This document shows, one piece after another, positions 6,318 to 38,232 of a stretch of DNA of 64,000 nucleotides. Positions within the stretch are counted from its first letter, which is position 1. Every line of letters begins with the position of its first letter. Where the stretch lies: the NCBI GenBank assembly GCA_937930305.1, contig CALGLE010000004.1, forward strand, positions 156,920-220,919. The letters run 5' to 3'. The notes beneath the pieces are model-generated. The model was given only the letters and a program-made list of their open reading frames with translations. It was not told where the DNA came from and did no database searches. This stretch comes from an uncultured Granulosicoccaceae bacterium (GTDB taxonomy: Bacteria > Pseudomonadota > Gammaproteobacteria > Granulosicoccales > Granulosicoccaceae). The position numbers were made by a program, and so were the translations under genes.

Positions 6318-8144
6318 GTGACGTTCACTGAAGCACCAGGTAGGCAAGAATCAGGTTTAGATACTTCGCGCCTGCTTGGGCATGTGAAAATAATGATGGT
6401 GGACGATGAGCCACTGAATATGGATGTTCTTCGCATCCATTTAGAAATCGAAGGCTACGCAAATTTCGTATGCGTCAGTGATTCTAATAAGGCCATTTCC
6501 ACTATGGAAGTGGAGCAACCTGATGTTGTGTTGCTGGATCTGGTCATGCCCGGAATGACGGGTTTCGACATTCTTGGAAAATTGCGTGAACATGAAACTT
6601 TAAAACATATTCCTATTGTCGTTTTGACTTCATCAGACGATGCTGAAACAAAACTACAAGCTCTGCAACTGGGCGCGAGCGACTTTCTAGCGAAGCCGGT
6701 AGACGCCAGTGAACTTGCACTGCGAATGCGTAACACCCTAGCGGCTCGTGCGTATGAACAGCGAATGAAATATCAAGACCCGCTGACGCAATTACCGAAT
6801 CGGTTGTTGTTTACTCAAAGGGCCACCAGCGCACTAAAGAAAGCACGAGAAATTAATCACAAAGCGGCGGCAATACTGGTCAACATCAATCGCTTTAAAT
6901 TGATAAACGATTCATTAGGCCCCTCACGTGGTGACGATGTTTTATGGGCATTCAGTCAACGCTTATGCCAAGCGTTTGATTTATCACCTGAAGATGGATT
7001 CGCCGATGATTCTGAGCTGAATCACTTTATCGCTAGAATCGGTGGTGATCGATTTGTGGTTTTGGTGCCAGGGGTTGAGTATTCCCATGAGGGAGTTAAG
7101 GCAGATCGCACCACCGGACCTGCAGAAGAGATGAGACAGGCCATTGACCGATTTCTCGAGGTAATGGAGAAGCCATTAAGCATCGGCGGCCAAGACATCT
7201 ATTTGAACGTGTATCTGGGTGTGTCCAGCTTATCTTCTGCCACACGATCAGTAGAGCATCTGATCAACGATGCTGAAACCGCAATGATGCATGCGCGTCG
7301 TCGCTTGAACACTAAAGTGGCTTACTACTCTGAGCAGATGGATTCAAAAGCACATGAGCTGCTGAGCATTGAAAACGGATTACGCACTGCGGTAGAAAAC
7401 AAAGAAATTTTTGTTGTTTATCAACCGAAAGTGAAGATAGCCACTGGGCAAATCACTGGCGCTGAGGCATTAGTGCGCTGGATGCATCCAGAATTCGGGC
7501 TAATATCCCCGGTTGATTTCATTCCGCTGGCCGAGGACTCAGGCATGATTGTGTCCATCGGTGAATGGGTGTTACGAGAGGCCTGTACGCGAGCTGTAGA
7601 GTGGCAAAAAATCACTTGCGAAAATTTTCACATAGCGGTAAACGTCTCCATTCGGCAGCTGTACGAACCTGATTTCACCAGCTTAGTTGAGCAAGTGCTT
7701 AAGGAAACCGGTCTGGATCCACGGTGTTTAGTCATCGAACTGACTGAAAATATGATCATGGAAGACGCCGATAGCAATATCATCAAAATGCGGCAATTGA
7801 AAGAATTAGGCATTCGTTTGTCCATAGATGATTTTGGAACAGGTTACTCGGCATTAAATTATTTGCAGCGTTTCTCAATGGATCAATTGAAAATTGATCA
7901 ATCTTTCATTCGACCGATCAATTCTCCAGATGAAGCGCAACCGATCGTTCGTGCGCTTATAACGCTGGCGCACGATTTAGGTATGCATGTTGTGGCTGAA
8001 GGGGTTGAAACACGCAATCAACTCGCGCTACTAGCGAATCTATCCTGCGATGAATATCAGGGATATCTGTGCAGTAAACCGGTGGCAAGTACCAGCTTCA
8101 TTCGGTTGTTGCTAGAACAGGCTGATATGAGAAAGTCCGCTTAA
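6318..8144 (+). CDS. REC-GGDEF(degenerate)-EAL response regulator, probable c-di-GMP phosphodiesterase
   Basis: REC 'MVDDE...LLDLVMP...FLAKP'; GGDEF-like site reads GGDRF (7041-7055); EAL motifs 'GAEALVRW', 'IELTE', 'DDFGTGYS', 'KIDQSF', 'AEGVE', 'QGY' are intact. Confidence 0.92.
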   Translation: MTFTEAPGRQESGLDTSRLLGHVKIMMVDDEPLNMDVLRIHLEIEGYANFVCVSDSNKAISTMEVEQPDVVLLDLVMPGMTGFDILGKLREHETLKHIPIVVLTSSDDAETKLQALQLGASDFLAKPVDASELALRMRNTLAARAYEQRMKYQDPLTQLPNRLLFTQRATSALKKAREINHKAAAILVNINRFKLINDSLGPSRGDDVLWAFSQRLCQAFDLSPEDGFADDSELNHFIARIGGDRFVVLVPGVEYSHEGVKADRTTGPAEEMRQAIDRFLEVMEKPLSIGGQDIYLNVYLGVSSLSSATRSVEHLINDAETAMMHARRRLNTKVAYYSEQMDSKAHELLSIENGLRTAVENKEIFVVYQPKVKIATGQITGAEALVRWMHPEFGLISPVDFIPLAEDSGMIVSIGEWVLREACTRAVEWQKITCENFHIAVNVSIRQLYEPDFTSLVEQVLKETGLDPRCLVIELTENMIMEDADSNIIKMRQLKELGIRLSIDDFGTGYSALNYLQRFSMDQLKIDQSFIRPINSPDEAQPIVRALITLAHDLGMHVVAEGVETRNQLALLANLSCDEYQGYLCSKPVASTSFIRLLLEQADMRKSA

Positions 8145-8650
8145 CCCTTCCAAACCATAGGCTGAGTGTCAGCCCGTTGGTACAATGGATGGGCAGGACT
8201 TCCATCGGTATTAATAGCTAAACAGAACAGTTGGCCTACATAGCGTTTCGCCAAACGTTTATCTTGCTCTTTCCAACCTCCATGTCGCCCCCAGCAAGCA
8301 ATAACCAGATCAGCGTTATCTATGGCTTGATGTAAGTGTTTCGAGTTATAAGGCCCCACAGGATCAATCGCATTTTTTAGCTCATTGGGGTAGGGCGTTC
8401 GATAAGCAAATAGATTGATGACCGTGAGTGCGTTGAAGCCCCAGCGTCGAGTGAAATCCATACAGCGACGAATGGTGGGATCATCCACGCGGTGATCCGC
8501 CGTGGAAGGATTGAGTCCGATAAACACCACACGCCTGGCCGCCTCGTCATTAGCCCAATAACGCTCTAACTTGTATCGGTAGCGTTTGCATCGAGAAAAA
8601 GCTGCCGTGCGTGTGATGTTCTCGTTTTTCAACGGCGCCTCTTGCGCCAT
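8141..8650 (-). CDS. DUF1643 family protein
   Basis: 'SRCKRYRYKLERYW', 'FIGLNPSTAD...DDPTIRRC', 'NLFAYR', 'VIACWG', 'PAHPLY'; start overlaps the rtcB remnant stop by 22 nt. Confidence 0.88.
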   Translation of the reverse strand: MAQEAPLKNENITRTAAFSRCKRYRYKLERYWANDEAARRVVFIGLNPSTADHRVDDPTIRRCMDFTRRWGFNALTVINLFAYRTPYPNELKNAIDPVGPYNSKHLHQAIDNADLVIACWGRHGGWKEQDKRLAKRYVGQLFCLAINTDGSPAHPLYQRADTQPMVWKG

Positions 8651-8958
8651 GGGGCGTCGTTTTGCCAGTCACCTGCCATGATGCATCCATAAGGCTGCAC
8701 GCGATCGACCACATCACACAGGGCGAACCGGTGCATATCCTCTTGAACAGCGGCAGCGTTTTTATACGCCGACGGCAGTTCTGATATATCAGGCTTGCCA
8801 CAATAAAACCGCGCATCCAGCCCTTCGGTCTCTTGTGCGTACACGACTTCCTCATCTTTTGTGTGAGGTGCGGCGTTGATGGTGCGCAACAGTTCACCCA
8901 CGATACGACCTTGCGGGCAGCCCAGTTTTAATAGCTCTTTTCCAGTCCAGGTTTTCAT
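8629..8958 (-). pseudogene. rtcB: RtcB-family RNA ligase remnant with large in-frame internal deletion
   Basis: N-terminus 'KTWTGKELLKLGCPQG' fused at about 8860-8872 to the RtcB C-terminus 'ETEGLDARFYCGKPDISELPSAYK...PYGCIMAGDWQNDAPWR'; 109 aa versus roughly 400-480 aa for the family; no GNH, HxGSR or HGAGR motifs. Confidence 0.8.
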
Positions 8959-8986
8959 AGCTTCTTGCTCTTCTTAGTTAATCCTC

Positions 8987-9326
8987 TTACGCGTTCAGGT
9001 GTTTAAACCCAGCGCGTAAGTACTGCATTTGATCCGCTAATACGGACCGATTCGACAACGCAAACCATTCATTCACGTGCAAACAGTGCCGCGTTGTTAA
9101 TACGAGGCACACTTTGCTCGCTAACTTTCCCTTTCACGGCAATAATAGTGGGCACGGCAATGACTGAGCGAGTTCCGTCGCGTTGGTAACCCCCATGCAG
9201 TGTGCTGGCAATTTCATTCATCGACCAAGACACCAGATCTTTTGCCAACAGTGAGGCTGCGGATTCAAAATTAATCCAGTCGGTGGGAAGCCCAGCTTTG
9301 TTCAGTTTTAATATTTGAGTGTTCAT
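8987..9326 (-). pseudogene. HNH endonuclease remnant: N- and C-termini kept, HNH/zinc core deleted, frameshifted
   Basis: 9326-9069 gives 'MNTQILKLNKAGLPTDW...NNAALFARE*'; a second frame at 9073-8987 gives 'NEWFALSNRSVLADQMQYLRAGFKHLNA*', the typical C-terminus of this HNH subfamily; no CxYCG, DHxxP or CxxCN between them. Confidence 0.72.
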
Positions 9327-9345
9327 AATGTATGTCGAAGAAACG

Positions 9346-9372
9346 AAAAAACCCGCTAAATTAGCGGGTTTT
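9346..9372 (-). terminator. Intrinsic terminator of a putative attenuator, 20 nt upstream of the HNH start
   Basis: Minus strand AAAACCCGCTA-ATT-TAGCGGGTTTTTT: perfect stem with a U6 tail. Confidence 0.85.
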
Positions 9373-9403
9373 CAGGCAAGAACTCGATACTTAAGTTTTA
9401 CTG

Positions 9404-9484
9404 TTAAACCCGCACACGCAAAAGCGCATCTCCCATCTCTGGGAGGCAGCGATTGCCGTGTAAATTGTTGAGTATCGTATTCAT
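9404..9484 (-). CDS. Putative 26-aa leader peptide MNTILNNLHGNRCLPEMGDALLRVRV
   Basis: ATG 9484 to TAA 9404; the last codons (GCGGGTTT, 9406-9413) are complementary to the terminator 5' arm; internal hairpin CTCCCA-GAGA-TGGGAG at 9430-9445; no clear Shine-Dalgarno. Confidence 0.55.
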   Translation of the reverse strand: MNTILNNLHGNRCLPEMGDALLRVRV

Positions 9485-9568
9485 GCGCGAGATGTTAACA
9501 GATTGTCCAAACTATGGCTAATTTCTCAATCTCTCCTGTCAGCCGAAGGCCTGTAACCCGGTGATACT

Positions 9569-9679
9569 ATGTCCAAAAACCGCCACCGGAAAAATTCAGC
9601 GTTTTATGTTGAAAAAATCACCTTAAACCCCGAAGAGGGCATCAAACGAACGCTGACACTCAATTTCAAAGCGTTCTAA
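9569..9679 (+). pseudogene. 36-aa small ORF resembling the C-terminal half of the Lrp/AsnC-domain protein at 15025-15261
   Basis: 'YVEKITLNPEEGIKRTLT-LNFKAF*' aligns by eye to 'YINEHLLNI-EGIDRSLTTLTFSAF*', including the stop position. Confidence 0.4.
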
Positions 9680-9707: not shown

Positions 9708-10838
9708 ATGAAAAAATTACTATTAGCGACAGCGGCCACGTTGTTATACGCAACCGCCGCTATCGCAGAAGTCAAGGTCGGAATGATCACAACATTGTCG
9801 GGTGGAGGCGCGGGTTTGGGCATCGACGTACGCGATGGTTTCATGTTGGCGATTAAGCAATCCGGTCGCGATGACATTAACGTGGTGATTGAAGATGATC
9901 AGCGCAAACCTGAAATCGCAGTGCAGCTTTCAGACAAAATGATTCAGTCTGAACGAGTGGATATAATGACTGGGATAATTTGGTCGAATCTGGCCATGGC
10001 CGTTGTGCCTTCCGCAGTTAACCAAGATGTTTTTTACCTCTCTCCCAATGCGGGGCCGTCGCCTTTAGCCGGGCCGGGCTGTCACAAAAATTACTTCAAT
10101 GTAGCGTGGCAAAATGACAATCTTCATGAAGCGGCCGGTGCCTATGCGAATGGAGTTAACTACAAAAACAGCTTCATCATGGCACCCAATTATCCTGCGG
10201 GTCAGGACGCGTTGACAGGCTATAAACGTTTTTATGAAGGCAAGTTATCTGGCGAGATTTTCACCCAGCTTGGACAGACCGACTACGCTGCAGAAATTGC
10301 TCAGATCCGCGCCAGTGGAGCGGATAGCGTGTACTTCTTTTTACCCGGTGGTATGGGTATCTCGTTCCTTAAACAATACGCGGACAGCGGTGTGGATACA
10401 CCCGTCATCGGACCTGCGTTCAGTTTCGATCAAGGCATTTTACAGGCGGTAGGTGAAGCGGCCTTAGGTGTTGTAAATACCTCGCAATGGAATAAAGACA
10501 TTGATAATCCGACCAATTCGGGCTTTGTCGATACATTTCAAGCTGAGTATGGCCGACTACCTTCGCTCTACGCCAGTCAGGGTTTCGATACCGCGAATCT
10601 GCTATTGTCCGCGCTAAACGTAGCAGAACCTTCGGATGCTGACGCATTCCGCGACGCGCTACGTGCCGCAAATTTTGATAGTACCCGAGGTGATTTTTCC
10701 TTTGGTCCTAACCACCATCCTGTGCAGACGATTTATGCGCGTGAAGTGATCAAAGAAGGTGATGTATTCACCAACAAGATCATTGGTACCGCGTTAGAAA
10801 ACCACTCTGACGCATACGCTGCTGATTGCAAAATGTAA
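9708..10838 (+). CDS. ABC transporter substrate-binding protein, branched-chain amino acid (LivK-like) family; aromatic-acid-type subgroup is inference
   Basis: Signal peptide, 'VKVGMITTLSG', 'EDDQRKPE', 'NAGPS', 'APNYPAG', 'YASQGFD'; RBS AGAGG upstream. Confidence 0.92.
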   Translation: MKKLLLATAATLLYATAAIAEVKVGMITTLSGGGAGLGIDVRDGFMLAIKQSGRDDINVVIEDDQRKPEIAVQLSDKMIQSERVDIMTGIIWSNLAMAVVPSAVNQDVFYLSPNAGPSPLAGPGCHKNYFNVAWQNDNLHEAAGAYANGVNYKNSFIMAPNYPAGQDALTGYKRFYEGKLSGEIFTQLGQTDYAAEIAQIRASGADSVYFFLPGGMGISFLKQYADSGVDTPVIGPAFSFDQGILQAVGEAALGVVNTSQWNKDIDNPTNSGFVDTFQAEYGRLPSLYASQGFDTANLLLSALNVAEPSDADAFRDALRAANFDSTRGDFSFGPNHHPVQTIYAREVIKEGDVFTNKIIGTALENHSDAYAADCKM

Positions 10839-17769: not shown

Positions 17770-18145
17770 TGGTGGAGCAGGGGGGAGTCGAACCCCCGTC
17801 CGAAAGCACTCTGCCTTTGGTACTACATGCTTAGTTTAGTCATTGGCTTTAATCTTTTAACCGAGGACTAGCACCCTGAAAAAAGACGAGCTCATTATTT
17901 GTTTAGCGATCCAGTGTAAGAGCGACCCTTCACGCGATCCTGTGGCTATTGCCCCAAGGTCCGAGTCACAGGCAAAACGGACCAAGGGTAGAACTGAACA
18001 ACTAGACGTTAAGGTCTAATTATGCAGCCATTGCGTAGTTGTCGTCGTTGGCAACTATAAAGTTATCAGCTGATTTTAACGAGGGGATCTGATCCTCGGC
18101 ATGCACCTCAGGGTTTGTCACTCCCGTCGAGACCATGTCTGCCCC
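17770..18145 (-). ncRNA. ssrA: tmRNA (one-piece, 376 nt); tag peptide ANDDNYAMAA at 18052-18020
   Basis: 5' GGGGCAG pairs with 3' CUGCUCC-ACCA including G3.U; T-arm GGGGGTTCGACTCCCCC; resume codon context TATAGTTGCC followed by the tag ORF ending AA-stop. Confidence 0.97.
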
Positions 18146-37091: not shown

Positions 37092-38232
37092 GTCGGAAAA
37101 CCGACTCAGTCTCGCCTGTAAGGCCGTTTTTTTGGCAGTGCTGGTCAGTGGCTGCGCTACTGAACCCCCGCCTGTACCACCGGCGGAACTGCTGTTGCTC
37201 AATGCCAAAGCGGAAATGAAATCGGAGTGGCGTAAATCCGGTTTCTATGCGGGCCGAAGCCAACTGCAACCCTTACCCTTGGCCGAAGGTCTTTATGTAG
37301 CGTCCCGTGAAGGGGTGGTGCAGCGTTTAGACCGAATCACAGGCAAATCAGACTGGAAGCGAGACCTTAACCAGACGCTGGGTGCTGGTGTGGGTGGAGA
37401 TGGAGACAGAGTCTTTGTTAGTACCGAAGACGGTACCGTGTTTGCGTTGGATTCGGAAACAGGCGAGACGCTTTGGACGCAAGCCGCGTCTTCGGAAGTA
37501 CTGGTGCCAGCCGTGGCTCGATTTGGTGCCGTAGTGGTGCGCAGCGCCGATGGCCGAATCGTCGTACTGGAACCTGAAACCGGTGCCGAGCGTTGGTCGG
37601 CATCGTTTACGCCACCGGCTTTAACGCTAAACGGATACAGCACACCCGTTGTTGTAGACGGTGGTGTATTGGTTGGCTTGGATGATGGGCGCGTGATTGC
37701 TTTGGCGTTAGATTCGGGTCGAGTCATTTGGGAATCGATAGTCAGTGTTCCCAGCGGTCGTTCAGAAGTCGAACGTTTAGTGGATATTGATGGTGATATT
37801 CAAATTGACGATGAGGCGATTTATTTAGCTTCTTACCGAGGTCGTATCGTTCGCATCGAACCTGCCCAAGGCAACATTGTTTGGTCAACGCCGATGTCGT
37901 CTACTGCGGGTGTGTTGTTAGGCAGTGACAAGATTTATGTGGTGAACGAGGAAGACTCGGTTCTAGAAGTAGACAAAGTTACCGGTGTAATTGGCTGGGA
38001 ACAGAAAGCGCTACGCGGTCGACGACTTACCCGTCCTGTAGCGGTAAGCGATGACACCTTACTCGTTGCAGATTTTGAAGGTTACGCGCATTTGATTAGC
38101 GCGAGAACTGGCGAGCTGGTGGGCCGAACGCGGGTCGGCAAAAAAGCGATTCGAACAACGCCGACGCAAGTGGGTGACATCATTTATATTCAGTCATCGG
38201 ACGGTGCATTAGCCGCTCTGCGGCAGCGGTAA
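37081..38232 (+). CDS. bamB: Outer membrane protein assembly factor BamB
   Basis: Lipobox 'LVSGC', PQQ-type beta-propeller repeats, 'SEVERLVDID'. Confidence 0.92.
   Translation: MPARSENRLSLACKAVFLAVLVSGCATEPPPVPPAELLLLNAKAEMKSEWRKSGFYAGRSQLQPLPLAEGLYVASREGVVQRLDRITGKSDWKRDLNQTLGAGVGGDGDRVFVSTEDGTVFALDSETGETLWTQAASSEVLVPAVARFGAVVVRSADGRIVVLEPETGAERWSASFTPPALTLNGYSTPVVVDGGVLVGLDDGRVIALALDSGRVIWESIVSVPSGRSEVERLVDIDGDIQIDDEAIYLASYRGRIVRIEPAQGNIVWSTPMSSTAGVLLGSDKIYVVNEEDSVLEVDKVTGVIGWEQKALRGRRLTRPVAVSDDTLLVADFEGYAHLISARTGELVGRTRVGKKAIRTTPTQVGDIIYIQSSDGALAALRQR

What the first reader, a model, noticed from the sequence alone, without database searches (positions are those of the whole stretch)
8987..9484. 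Complete leader-peptide attenuator controlling an HNH-RtcB-DUF1643 operon: candidate translation-stress switch for RNA repair
Seen: on the minus strand a 26-aa uORF (9484-9404, MNTILNNLHGNRCLPEMGDALLRVRV) is followed by a perfect intrinsic terminator (9372-9346, U6 tail) 20 nt before the HNH ATG. The last leader codons carry GCGGGUUU (9406-9413), exactly complementary to AAACCCGC in the terminator 5' arm (9364-9371), so an antiterminator and the terminator are mutually exclusive. A GNRA-capped hairpin (CTCCCA-GAGA-TGGGAG, 9430-9445) lies mid-leader. Inference: a ribosome that finishes the leader masks the antiterminator (OFF), while a stalled or absent ribosome frees it (ON). That would induce RNA repair genes when translation fails. 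Established precedent: the P. aeruginosa RtcB-like gene PA5471/armZ is induced by ribosome-targeting antibiotics through leader-peptide attenuation, whereas E. coli rtcBA uses sigma54/RtcR. I know of no description of this HNH-RtcB-DUF1643 version. Caveat: no Shine-Dalgarno precedes the uORF.
Basis: partly seen in the sequence, partly recalled or inferred. Interest (0 to 1): 0.75.

Follow-up and report, generated by a model that had tools for sequence, protein, structure and literature searches.

The report
Leaderless uORF attenuator, relic operon
A short upstream reading frame, an anti-terminator and a terminator form a conserved transcription switch that, in relatives and in phage-like contigs, sits in front of spare tRNA gene arrays and an HNH-RtcB RNA-repair module; in this window the switch is intact but the HNH and RtcB genes behind it are deletion relics.

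Summary
Comparison shows the leader is real and conserved. A covariance model found it in 8 independent loci. Five precede HNH(-RtcB-DUF1643); three sit about 20 nt upstream of tRNA gene arrays that run into or lie beside the same HNH family. The uORF has 26 codons in 7 loci and 24 in one. Its stop codon (TAA, TGA or TAG) always lies in the 5' strand of a -13.5 to -21 kcal/mol anti-terminator hairpin that competes with the terminator. The central hairpin, terminator and anti-terminator all show compensatory changes. A -10 element lies 6-7 nt before the AUG in all 8, which suggests a leaderless uORF and would explain the missing Shine-Dalgarno. The same architecture is enriched upstream of tRNA arrays in IMG/VR contigs.

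Two caveats apply. In this window the HNH and RtcB catalytic cores are deleted and only DUF1643 is intact. There is also no transcript or ribosome data, and the peptide shows no coding-type selection.

Most likely this is a ribosome-dependent attenuator that opens when leader translation fails. It is a new variant of a known mechanism with a new cargo (tRNA arrays, HNH, RtcB).

The parts
9492..9520 (-). Predicted sigma-70 promoter. It has a weak -35 TAGCCA (9520-9515), a 17-nt spacer ending in TGT (extended -10), and a -10 TAACAT (9497-9492). A pyrimidine-rich 7-nt stretch (9491-9485) then leads to the uORF AUG.
   Evidence: The geometry is the same in all 8 leaders. L106 has TTGACT-17-TATGAT-7 nt-ATG, L107 has TTGACA-17-TAAGGT-7-ATG, and L001 has TTGACA-17-TATAAA-6-ATG. 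The five HNH-type leaders all carry TGT-TAnnnT 7 nt before the ATG. The transcription start site has not been verified.
9404..9484 (-). Leader uORF of 26 codons plus TAA, probably leaderless (AUG at or next to +1).
   Evidence: Searches show the ORF. Homologous uORFs have 26 codons in 7 loci and 24 in one. The AUG is invariant, and the stop is TAA, TGA or TAG. The only population variant seen in the uORF is synonymous, AAT>AAC.
9415..9461 (-). Central hairpin inside the uORF (core 9445-9430, GAGA loop). It is a candidate RNA polymerase pause hairpin that could synchronise ribosome and polymerase.
   Evidence: Searches show the fold. In the 8-leader alignment, 7 of its 8 pairs carry compensatory changes (helix 2). 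The pause role is inference only.
9364..9413 (-). Anti-terminator hairpin. The 5' strand GCGGGUUU (9413-9406, the last uORF codons and the first base of the stop) plus CAG (9403-9401) pairs with CUG (9375-9373) plus AAACCCGC (9371-9364).
   Evidence: Its energy is -17.3 kcal/mol with z = -3.4. An equivalent hairpin of -13.5 to -21 kcal/mol exists in all 8 leaders, and the partner bases covary around the stop codon. In the nascent transcript its predicted probability is 1.0 unless a ribosome sits at codon 22 or later.
9341..9373 (-). Intrinsic terminator: a 12-bp stem (9373-9347), a U6 tract and a conserved CGUUU(CU) tail.
   Evidence: One search finds it; its energy is -15.6 kcal/mol. Two stem pairs show compensatory changes across leaders (helix 4). 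It shares its 5' arm with the anti-terminator.
8987..9326 (-). HNH endonuclease pseudogene. N-terminal domain residues 1 to about 86 lie in ORF 9326-9069, and the C-terminal tail (about residues 143-180) lies in another frame (9103-8990). The catalytic HNH core is deleted.
   Evidence: There is no Pfam HNH hit. The gene was aligned to the intact 180-aa orthologues of L006, L018 and L001.
8629..8958 (-). rtcB relic. An in-frame deletion of about 354 codons (residues about 37-390 of the 465-aa orthologue) leaves a 109-aa ORF without the catalytic centre.
   Evidence: Pfam RtcB matches only model positions 362-424 of 426, at 19.7 bits, below the cut-off. tblastn against the L018 RtcB aligns residues 1-36 and 391-459.
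8141..8650 (-). Intact DUF1643 gene (169 aa), the only undamaged cargo behind the switch in this window.
   Evidence: Pfam PF07799 matches at 1.2e-39 over the full model. Orthologues 65-75% identical lie at the same syntenic site.

Best explanation
This is a ribosome-dependent (leader-peptide) transcription attenuator.

Transcription probably starts at or next to the AUG of a 26-codon uORF, so the uORF would be translated as a leaderless mRNA. The last codons and the stop codon of the uORF form the 5' strand of an anti-terminator hairpin. The 3' strand of that hairpin is the 5' arm of an intrinsic terminator.

If a ribosome translates the leader promptly and occupies the stop codon while RNA polymerase makes the terminator, the anti-terminator cannot form and transcription ends (OFF). 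If leader translation is not started or stalls before about codon 20, the anti-terminator forms first and polymerase reads through into the cargo (ON). A conserved hairpin in the middle of the uORF may pause polymerase to keep the two machines in step.

What is shown: the parts, their conservation, their covariation and their mutual exclusivity. What is inferred: the start site, translation of the uORF, the pause role and the physiological signal.

The cargo in relatives is a spare tRNA array plus an HNH nuclease, or HNH-RtcB-DUF1643. That points to failing translation as the signal, for example tRNA damage or ribosome-targeting drugs. In this window the switch is intact, but behind it only DUF1643 is still functional.
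For: The anatomy was confirmed.

Five independent leaders were found upstream of orthologous HNH genes: window, L006, L018/L019, L103 and L105. Their alignment is ungapped from the -10 element through the uORF.

Covariance model R1 found three more, directly upstream of tRNA arrays: L107 (E 1e-8), L106 (1.6e-8) and L001 (0.007). Only about 18-24 nt separate the terminator from the first tRNA, so the array can hardly have a promoter of its own.

The uORFs have 26 codons in 7 loci and 24 in one, so the only length change is in frame. The AUG is invariant, and all three stop codons are used.

On the 8-leader alignment, 90.3% of cells are paired against 40-52% when the partners are slid. Thirteen pairs carry double changes, a value reached by 0 of 500 shuffles.

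Anti-terminator hairpins of -13.5 to -21 kcal/mol start 5 to 7 nt before the stop codon in all 8. The partner bases covary with the stop codon: L001 UGA:UCA, L105 UAG:CUG, L107 UAG:CUA.

Folding of nascent transcripts gives P(anti-terminator) of 0.45-1.0 with no ribosome. With a ribosome at codons 2-18 it is 0.41-1.0 (0.99 or more at codons 2-6). With a ribosome at codon 22 or at the stop it is 0.

The promoter geometry, a -10 element 6-7 nt before the AUG with no Shine-Dalgarno, holds in all 8.

In IMG/VR, 27 of 106 matches to the anti-terminator/terminator pattern lie 200 nt or less upstream of tRNA genes (baseline 3.2%, p about 6e-17). Of these, 67% have a uORF that ends in the anti-terminator strand, against 22% elsewhere.

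Functional context: this HNH family is homologous (37% identity, E 3e-26) to the Anabaena HNH next to the 24-tRNA array. That gene, the array and rtcB are induced together by translation inhibitors (PMC8421152). The RtcB-like ArmZ is controlled by a leader peptide that senses ribosome stalling (PMC3575510, PMC12057347).
Against: There are no transcript, start-site, termination or ribosome-footprint data; no RNA run holds the locus.

The peptide shows no coding-type selection. Synonymous changes are 25% of single-base codon differences against 22.5% expected, and the third codon position is no more variable than the others. Frame 3 is also almost free of stops. The case for translation therefore rests on the AUG, the length and the stop-codon placement.

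Leaderless translation is uncommon in Gammaproteobacteria.

RNAalifold also proposes a helix between the supposed -10 region and the end of the uORF (helix 1). If transcription starts further upstream, this helix would be an RNA-only anti-anti-terminator.

The regulatory codons are unknown.

The folds predict read-through as the default, so the OFF state needs tight coupling of ribosome and polymerase.

In this window the cargo is largely dead.
Confidence: 0.65

Rival explanations
1. This is an RNA-only attenuator of the riboswitch or protein/tRNA-binding type. The same terminator/anti-terminator pair would be flipped by a ligand, a protein (for example the HNH product) or a tRNA that binds the structured leader. 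The ORF would be incidental.
For: There is no coding-type selection, and frame 3 is almost open too. The central hairpin covaries strongly. RNAalifold helix 1 and long-range 5'/3' pairings appear in some members. No Shine-Dalgarno is present.
Against: The AUG is invariant and sits exactly at the predicted start site in 8 of 8 leaders. ORF length is held at 26 codons even where the anti-terminator register shifts by 2 nt (L106, L107), and the only length change is 2 codons. The stop codon stays a stop while its pairing partners change. No Rfam riboswitch or T-box appears even at E up to 10. Viral versions keep a uORF that ends in the same strand, although their sequence is unrelated.
Confidence: 0.2
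2. This is an independent small gene: an sRNA of about 140 nt, or an mRNA for a 26-aa protein, with its own promoter and terminator. It would merely lie upstream of the cargo and act in trans.
For: It is a complete promoter-to-terminator unit. Attenuator-derived RNAs and leader peptides can act in trans in S. meliloti (PMC7298713). The unit survives in this window although its cargo decayed.
Against: The peptide sequence is not conserved. The unit is always in the same orientation and lies 13-100 nt from the cargo. In front of tRNA arrays there is no room for another promoter. The anti-terminator, which would be pointless for a stand-alone gene, is conserved and covaries. In L022 a deletion removed the terminator but kept the promoter in front of DUF1643.
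Confidence: 0.08
3. This is a chance combination: an ordinary, possibly bidirectional terminator left by a rearrangement, plus a random ORF and a random 8-mer.
For: The simple scan finds terminator-like sites at the chance rate in this region, 3 found against 2.5 expected. A rearrangement scar lies just upstream, the CoA-ligase relic at 9570-9623.
Against: The leader is conserved across 8 loci whose flanks are otherwise unalignable. The model scores 122-167 bits for the HNH-type leaders and finds no second copy in the 64-kb window. The covariation statistics and the p of about 0.003-0.015 for the 8-mer also argue against chance.
Confidence: 0.02

Closest known systems
PA5471.1 leader peptide upstream of armZ (PA5471, RtcB-like) in Pseudomonas aeruginosa
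   Same: A short uORF and downstream terminators gate an RtcB-family gene. Ribosome stalling on the uORF is proposed to restructure the leader and allow read-through (PMC12057347, PMC3575510).
   Different: There is no sequence relationship (13 aa against 26 aa). ArmZ is an anti-repressor paired with a PrfH-like gene. The RtcB here is a different subfamily, scoring 47 bits against a cut-off of 271.8 for the release-factor-H-coupled type. The uORF here appears leaderless, and the element also gates tRNA arrays.
Classical amino-acid operon attenuators (trpL, hisL, pheL, leuL; Rfam leader families)
   Same: They share the uORF, the mutually exclusive anti-terminator and terminator, a possible pause hairpin, and termination when the ribosome reaches the stop codon.
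   Different: There is no run of regulatory codons and no biosynthetic cargo. In most members here the untranslated state is predicted to be ON rather than super-attenuated. Rfam scores are below threshold (Trp_leader 23.5 bits against 41).
Leaderless leader peptides: S. meliloti trpL (rnTrpL starts at the ATG) and mycobacterial polycysteine leaderless uORF attenuators
   Same: The attenuator RNA begins with the uORF start codon and has no Shine-Dalgarno (PMC7298713; bioRxiv 10.1101/834739).
   Different: They occur in different phyla, sense amino acids, and carry different cargo. Here the leaderless state is only inferred from promoter geometry.
Anabaena PCC 7120 translational-stress regulon (trn tRNA array, HNH all8564, rtcB), repressed by TrcR
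   Same: The HNH family is the same (37% identity) and lies next to a long tRNA array. The HNH gene, the array and rtcB are co-induced by chloramphenicol and other translation stress (PMC8421152).
   Different: Regulation there works through a repressor and direct repeats over the -10 element. No such repeats occur at the window promoter, and no leader-like element occurs in the Anabaena locus. Here the proposed sensor is the ribosome itself.
Antibiotic-responsive ribosome-mediated attenuators of Firmicutes (bmrB-bmrCD, mef/mel leader)
   Same: Stalling on a short uORF prevents terminator formation and induces a gene that relieves translation stress (PMC4191407, PMC4335068).
   Different: Those uORFs are led by a Shine-Dalgarno, occur in Gram-positive bacteria, and carry a drug efflux pump or ABC-F protein as cargo.

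Membership tests
Ribosome-mediated (leader-peptide) transcription attenuator | A short ORF lies in the transcribed leader upstream of the regulated genes. | tested here: met
   The uORF at 9484-9404 is conserved at 26 or 24 codons in 8 leaders.
Ribosome-mediated (leader-peptide) transcription attenuator | An intrinsic terminator lies between the uORF and the first regulated gene. | tested here: met
   The terminator at 9373-9347 plus its U tract is present in all 8 leaders at -11.9 to -16.5 kcal/mol.
Ribosome-mediated (leader-peptide) transcription attenuator | An alternative anti-terminator excludes the terminator and is occluded by a ribosome at a defined position in the uORF. | tested here: met
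   This was tested by computation only. The hairpin spans 9413-9364. All 8 leaders have one, with covariation, and a ribosome mask at codon 22 or later abolishes it.
Ribosome-mediated (leader-peptide) transcription attenuator | Regulatory codons are cognate to the signal that is sensed. | tested here: not met
   There is no codon run. The leaders are only somewhat rich in Asn.
Ribosome-mediated (leader-peptide) transcription attenuator | The uORF is translated, and read-through depends on that translation. | not testable with these tools
   No RNA or ribosome-profiling run holds the locus.
Rfam leader families (Trp_leader, Leu_leader, Phe_leader and others) | The covariance-model score reaches the gathering threshold. 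| tested here: not met
   The best hit is Trp_leader at 23.5 bits against 41. All the others are lower, and there is no hit at gathering thresholds.
T-box or other riboswitch | The leader matches a known aptamer model. | tested here: not met
   No riboswitch family appears among the hits at E up to 10.
TrcR-controlled translational-stress regulon (Anabaena type) | An HNH gene of the same family is linked to a long tRNA array. | tested here: met
   The arrays are in L106 (15 tRNAs), L107 (7), L001 (7) and L180 (24). There is no array in the window itself.
TrcR-controlled translational-stress regulon (Anabaena type) | Direct 9-nt repeats (TGTWNWWNWNNWGTANYNWA) overlap the -10 element and the start site. 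| tested here: not met
   The only match in the window is at 1247-1266, at the chance rate.
RtcB RNA ligase (the window's own gene) | A complete catalytic domain, including the metal-binding residues and the guanylylated His. | tested here: not met
   Only model positions 362-424 of 426 remain. Residues about 37-390 of the orthologue are deleted. Intact orthologues score 118 bits on Pfam RtcB.
HNH endonuclease (the window's own gene) | The HNH catalytic motif. | tested here: not met
   The window ORFs give no Pfam HNH hit. The intact orthologue hits HNH and HNH_5 at residues 89-143, which is the deleted segment.

The most novel reading that the evidence does not exclude
The window's leader may belong to a widespread, undescribed class of leaderless-uORF transcription attenuators whose native job is to gate spare tRNA gene arrays, with an associated HNH nuclease and sometimes RtcB, in phages and bacterial islands. 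When ribosomes stall or fail to start on the leader, for example after anticodon-nuclease attack, tRNA depletion or ribosome-targeting drugs, the array and repair genes would switch on. The ribosome itself would then be the sensor for a back-up translation kit.
Probability: 0.4. Interest if true: 0.85.

Novelty: new variant of a known kind. Interest (0 to 1): 0.7.

Why it matters
It is largely unknown how tRNA gene arrays and RtcB-type repair genes are switched on. The one studied case, Anabaena, uses a repressor. E. coli rtcBA uses sigma-54 and RtcR. ArmZ uses a poorly understood leader peptide.

A compact attenuator that can be recognised from sequence would give a direct mechanistic link between failing translation and induction of spare tRNAs and RNA repair. 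It would be easy to test with reporter fusions. It would also give a sequence signature for finding such stress modules in phage and bacterial genomes.

For annotating this window, the result also corrects the picture. The locus is a decaying remnant in which only the switch and DUF1643 survive.

Tried and rejected
- A protein search with the 85-aa HNH fragment found only the query itself.
- Exact DNA pattern scans of GTDB genomes for the leader found nothing. Alignment-based HNH scans of genomes and metagenomes returned only solo HNH genes without this leader.
- The first viral pattern scan found nothing.
- No RNA runs are available for the window. A locus from the look-up of encoding contigs could not be submitted to the run search. 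The one run found for L001 was low-depth contigs with no information on transcript ends.
- Known RNA families gave only sub-threshold leader hits driven by the terminator.
- PADLOC gave only generic HNH-domain hits, so the module is not a known defence system.
- I looked for a coding signature (dN/dS-like counts and codon-position variability) and found none.
- My strict TAnnnT -10 filter on the viral uORFs was too narrow, because it misses TATAAA. I discarded it.
- I rejected the idea that the short spacer between terminator and HNH in the window is a decay feature, because L105 has a 13-nt spacer with an intact HNH.
- The Anabaena-type operator repeats are absent.

Full report
**1. Observation.**
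- The uORF runs from ATG 9484 to TAA 9406-9404 and encodes MNTILNNLHGNRCLPEMGDALLRVRV.
- The hairpin CTCCCA-GAGA-TGGGAG lies at 9445-9430.
- GCGGGTTT lies at 9413-9406 and is complementary to AAACCCGC at 9371-9364.
- The terminator has a 12-bp stem at 9373-9347 and a U tract.
- The next ATG is at 9326. No Shine-Dalgarno precedes the uORF.

GCGGGTTT is expected 3.4 times per 128 kb of strand. A copy within 110 nt upstream of the terminator on the right strand therefore has p of about 0.003-0.015. The leader folds with z = -4.4. It lies between divergent genes, since the + strand ABC-transporter binding protein starts at 9708. The terminator therefore ends no upstream gene.

**2. The cargo in this window is a relic.**
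- ORF 9326-9069 is only the N-terminal 85 aa of a 180-aa HNH protein. The catalytic core is deleted, and the C-terminal tail continues in another frame (9103-8990).
- ORF 8958-8629 joins RtcB residues 1-36 in frame to residues 391-459. Pfam matches only model positions 362-424 of 426.
- DUF1643 (8650-8141) is intact.
- The organism belongs to Granulosicoccaceae, from a marine metagenome.
- At the same syntenic site, next to a GGDEF-EAL response regulator, relatives carry an intact HNH(180)-RtcB(465)-DUF1643 operon (L018/L019, L103) or a frameshifted one (L006). Others carry HNH only (L105) or DUF1643 only (L005, L007, L020, L102, L104). In L022 a deletion fuses the promoter and uORF start to the HNH tail. 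The module is therefore being lost repeatedly.

**3. The leader is conserved.**
Five independent leaders precede the HNH orthologues, in the window, L006, L018, L103 and L105. They align without gaps from a TGT-TAnnnT motif through the uORF. A covariance model built from them scores them at 122-167 bits and finds no second copy in the window. It also finds three further copies: L107 (E 1e-8), L106 (1.6e-8) and L001 (0.007). Each of these lies 18-24 nt upstream of the first gene of a tRNA array, with 7, 15 and 7 tRNAs respectively. In L106 and L107 the array runs into an HNH gene 68-72% identical to that of L018.

**4. The uORF.**
The peptides are:
- window: MNTILNNLHGNRCLPEMGDALLRVRV
- L103: MNIMNLNTNGNRCLQSSEDALSRLRV
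- L018: MNRINQYFIGSRCLQNGEETLSPMRV
- L006: MNPSMRTINDKNFLLSLEGAWSRTRV
- L105: MSNSRTYFHSTTMRVSFRSVELSVRV
- L107: MNAINNILAKGNFRQDWTEVHSCMGF
- L106: MNAIRNIFTKGNCRQDWAEMHSCMGF
- L001: MISTHANNMFDRLPKQESWIRVRV

Seven have 26 codons and one has 24. The AUG is invariant. The only length change is in frame. The stop is TAA, TGA or TAG. In L106 and L107 the anti-terminator register is shifted by 2 nt, yet the ORF still has 26 codons.

Against a coding reading, the amino-acid sequence is not under purifying selection, and frame 3 is also nearly open. This pattern is what one expects of a leader peptide whose translation matters rather than its product. It means, however, that translation is inferred and not shown.

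**5. Promoter and the missing Shine-Dalgarno.**
In all 8 leaders a -10 element ends 6-7 nt before the AUG.
- L106: TTGACT-17-TATGAT-7-ATG
- L107: TTGACA-17-TAAGGT-7-ATG
- L001: TTGACA-17-TATAAA-6-ATG
- The five HNH-type leaders have an extended -10, TGT-TA(A/G/T)nnT.

The uORF would therefore start at or next to +1 as a leaderless mRNA, as is known for S. meliloti trpL (PMC7298713) and for mycobacterial uORF attenuators (bioRxiv 10.1101/834739). One alternative is not excluded. RNAalifold pairs this region with the end of the uORF (helix 1), and that pairing would matter if transcription began further upstream.

**6. Structures.**
On the 8-leader alignment, 90.3% of cells pair, against 40-52% when the partners are slid. 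Thirteen pairs carry double changes, a value reached by 0 of 500 shuffles. The central hairpin has 7 of 8 pairs with compensatory changes, and the terminator has 2.

Every leader has an anti-terminator hairpin that starts 5 to 7 nt before the stop codon and ends in the 5' arm of the terminator. Its energy is -13.5 to -21 kcal/mol, against -11.9 to -16.5 for the terminator. The partner bases covary with the stop codon: L001 UGA:UCA, L105 UAG:CUG. In L106 and L107 a continuous 14-bp helix, GGGUUUUUAGCGAA/UUUGCUAAGAACCC, includes the UAG.

Folding of nascent transcripts gives P(anti-terminator) of 0.45-1.0 with no ribosome. With a ribosome at codons 2-18 it is 0.41-1.0 (0.99 or more at codons 2-6). 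With a ribosome at codon 22 or at the stop it is 0. The last result follows partly from the mask, but the geometry is the same in all 8.

**7. Wider distribution.**
The pattern GGGTYT-N25-45-AACCCG-N7-14-CGGGTTTTTT has 105 hits in IMG/VR. Of the 106 matches, 27 lie 200 nt or less upstream of tRNA genes on the same strand, with arrays of up to 19-24 tRNAs. The baseline is 3.2% even within these loci, giving p of about 6e-17. Of those 27, 18 have an ATG uORF of 20-42 codons that ends in the GGG strand, against 17 of 79 elsewhere. Many of them have TATAAA(T) 6-7 nt before the ATG. Examples:
- L146: a 32-aa uORF and a 13-bp anti-terminator, GGGUUUUGUAUAG/CUAUACAAAACCC, that includes the stop.
- L180: a 40-aa uORF, GGGUCGGGUU/AACCCGACCC, and 24 tRNAs with the same HNH family (45% identity) inside the array.

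The pattern pre-selects the core pairs. The independent evidence here is therefore the enrichment next to tRNA genes and the placement of the uORF.

**8. Functional context.**
This HNH family is homologous (37% identity, E 3e-26) to the HNH gene just upstream of the 24-tRNA array on Anabaena pCC7120delta. That gene, the array and rtcB are co-induced by translation inhibitors, through the repressor TrcR and direct repeats (PMC8421152). No such repeats occur here, and the Anabaena locus has no leader-like element. The same kind of module thus appears to be wired to translation stress by a different device.

The RtcB-like ArmZ of P. aeruginosa is likewise controlled by the leader peptide PA5471.1 (PMC3575510, PMC12057347). 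The RtcB here is a distinct subfamily. It scores 118 bits on Pfam RtcB but falls far below the NCBIfam cut-offs for both the E. coli type and the PrfH-coupled type.

**9. Mechanism and confidence.**
- That this is a conserved cis-regulatory terminator/anti-terminator switch: about 0.9.
- That it is operated by translation of a leaderless uORF (ribosome at the stop gives OFF; stalled or absent ribosome gives ON): about 0.65.
- That the physiological signal is general translation failure or tRNA damage: about 0.45, inferred from the cargo and from analogy.

The rivals are an RNA-only switch (0.2), an independent small gene (0.08) and chance (0.02).

**10. Novelty.**
Ribosome-mediated attenuation, leaderless leader peptides and translation-stress control of RtcB are each known. 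The combination found here appears in no paper retrieved. That combination is a conserved leaderless-uORF attenuator in front of tRNA arrays, with an HNH-RtcB-DUF1643 derivative. I rate it a new variant of a known kind. The window's own copy is a well-preserved switch in front of a mostly dead operon.

Noticed in passing
window 9570-9623 (+): This is a 3' relic of an AMP-dependent synthetase (CoA-ligase) gene; frame 9501 reads ...CPKTATGKIQRFMLKKSP*. It showed up because contigs of unrelated genes in runs X1-X4 match only 9572-9611. It probably marks the junction between the leader-HNH-RtcB-DUF1643 module and the neighbouring ABC-transporter cluster.
   Followed up: partly
window 17770-18145 (-): A tmRNA gene with the tag peptide ANDDNYAMAA lies here, about 8 kb from the locus. 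No link to the finding was established.
   Followed up: no
window 37383-37466 (+): ARAGORN calls an 84-nt tRNA-Thr(AGT) with its anticodon at position 38. Rfam did not report it at gathering threshold, so it may be a false positive or an aberrant tRNA.
   Followed up: no
L106 876-3283; L107 3100-3880; L001 6794-7906 (-); L180 2453-8639 (-): Long tRNA gene arrays of 7 to 24 genes lie next to orthologues of the window's HNH gene, in marine contigs and in an IMG/VR contig. In L106, L107 and L001 the first tRNA is tRNA-Asn(GTT), and the leader peptides are rich in Asn.
   Followed up: partly
window 8141-9326 and loci L005, L007, L020, L022, L102, L104, L105, L006: The HNH-RtcB-DUF1643 module has decayed repeatedly and independently at one syntenic site. 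DUF1643 is usually the survivor, but in L105 HNH survives and DUF1643 is the relic. In L022 the promoter and the first uORF codons appear to be fused by deletion to the HNH tail.
   Followed up: partly
window 8851-8853 (rtcB deletion junction): The rtcB deletion of about 354 codons is in frame and lies between two Asp-Glu codon pairs, which suggests microhomology. It leaves a 109-aa ORF that keeps the small N-terminal domain and the C-terminal 70 residues.
   Followed up: no
window 9327-9345; L105 1762-1774; L106 3284-3306; L107 3881-4000: HNH genes of this family have no recognisable Shine-Dalgarno, whether they follow the terminator directly or follow the last tRNA of an array. How they are translated is unexplained.
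   Followed up: no
L001 7166-7393: A stretch inside the tRNA array, between tRNA-Met and tRNA-Gly, has a contig word depth of 900-2800 in run X5, against about 2 around it, and many variant joints. It may be an abundant or repeated element. Rfam gives no hit at gathering threshold.
   Followed up: partly
window 9479 and 9338: Related strains in the same study carry 9479 A>G on the + strand. This changes uORF codon 2 from AAT to AAC, which is synonymous and is the codon used in most other leaders. They also carry 9338 A>C in the spacer after the terminator.
   Followed up: no
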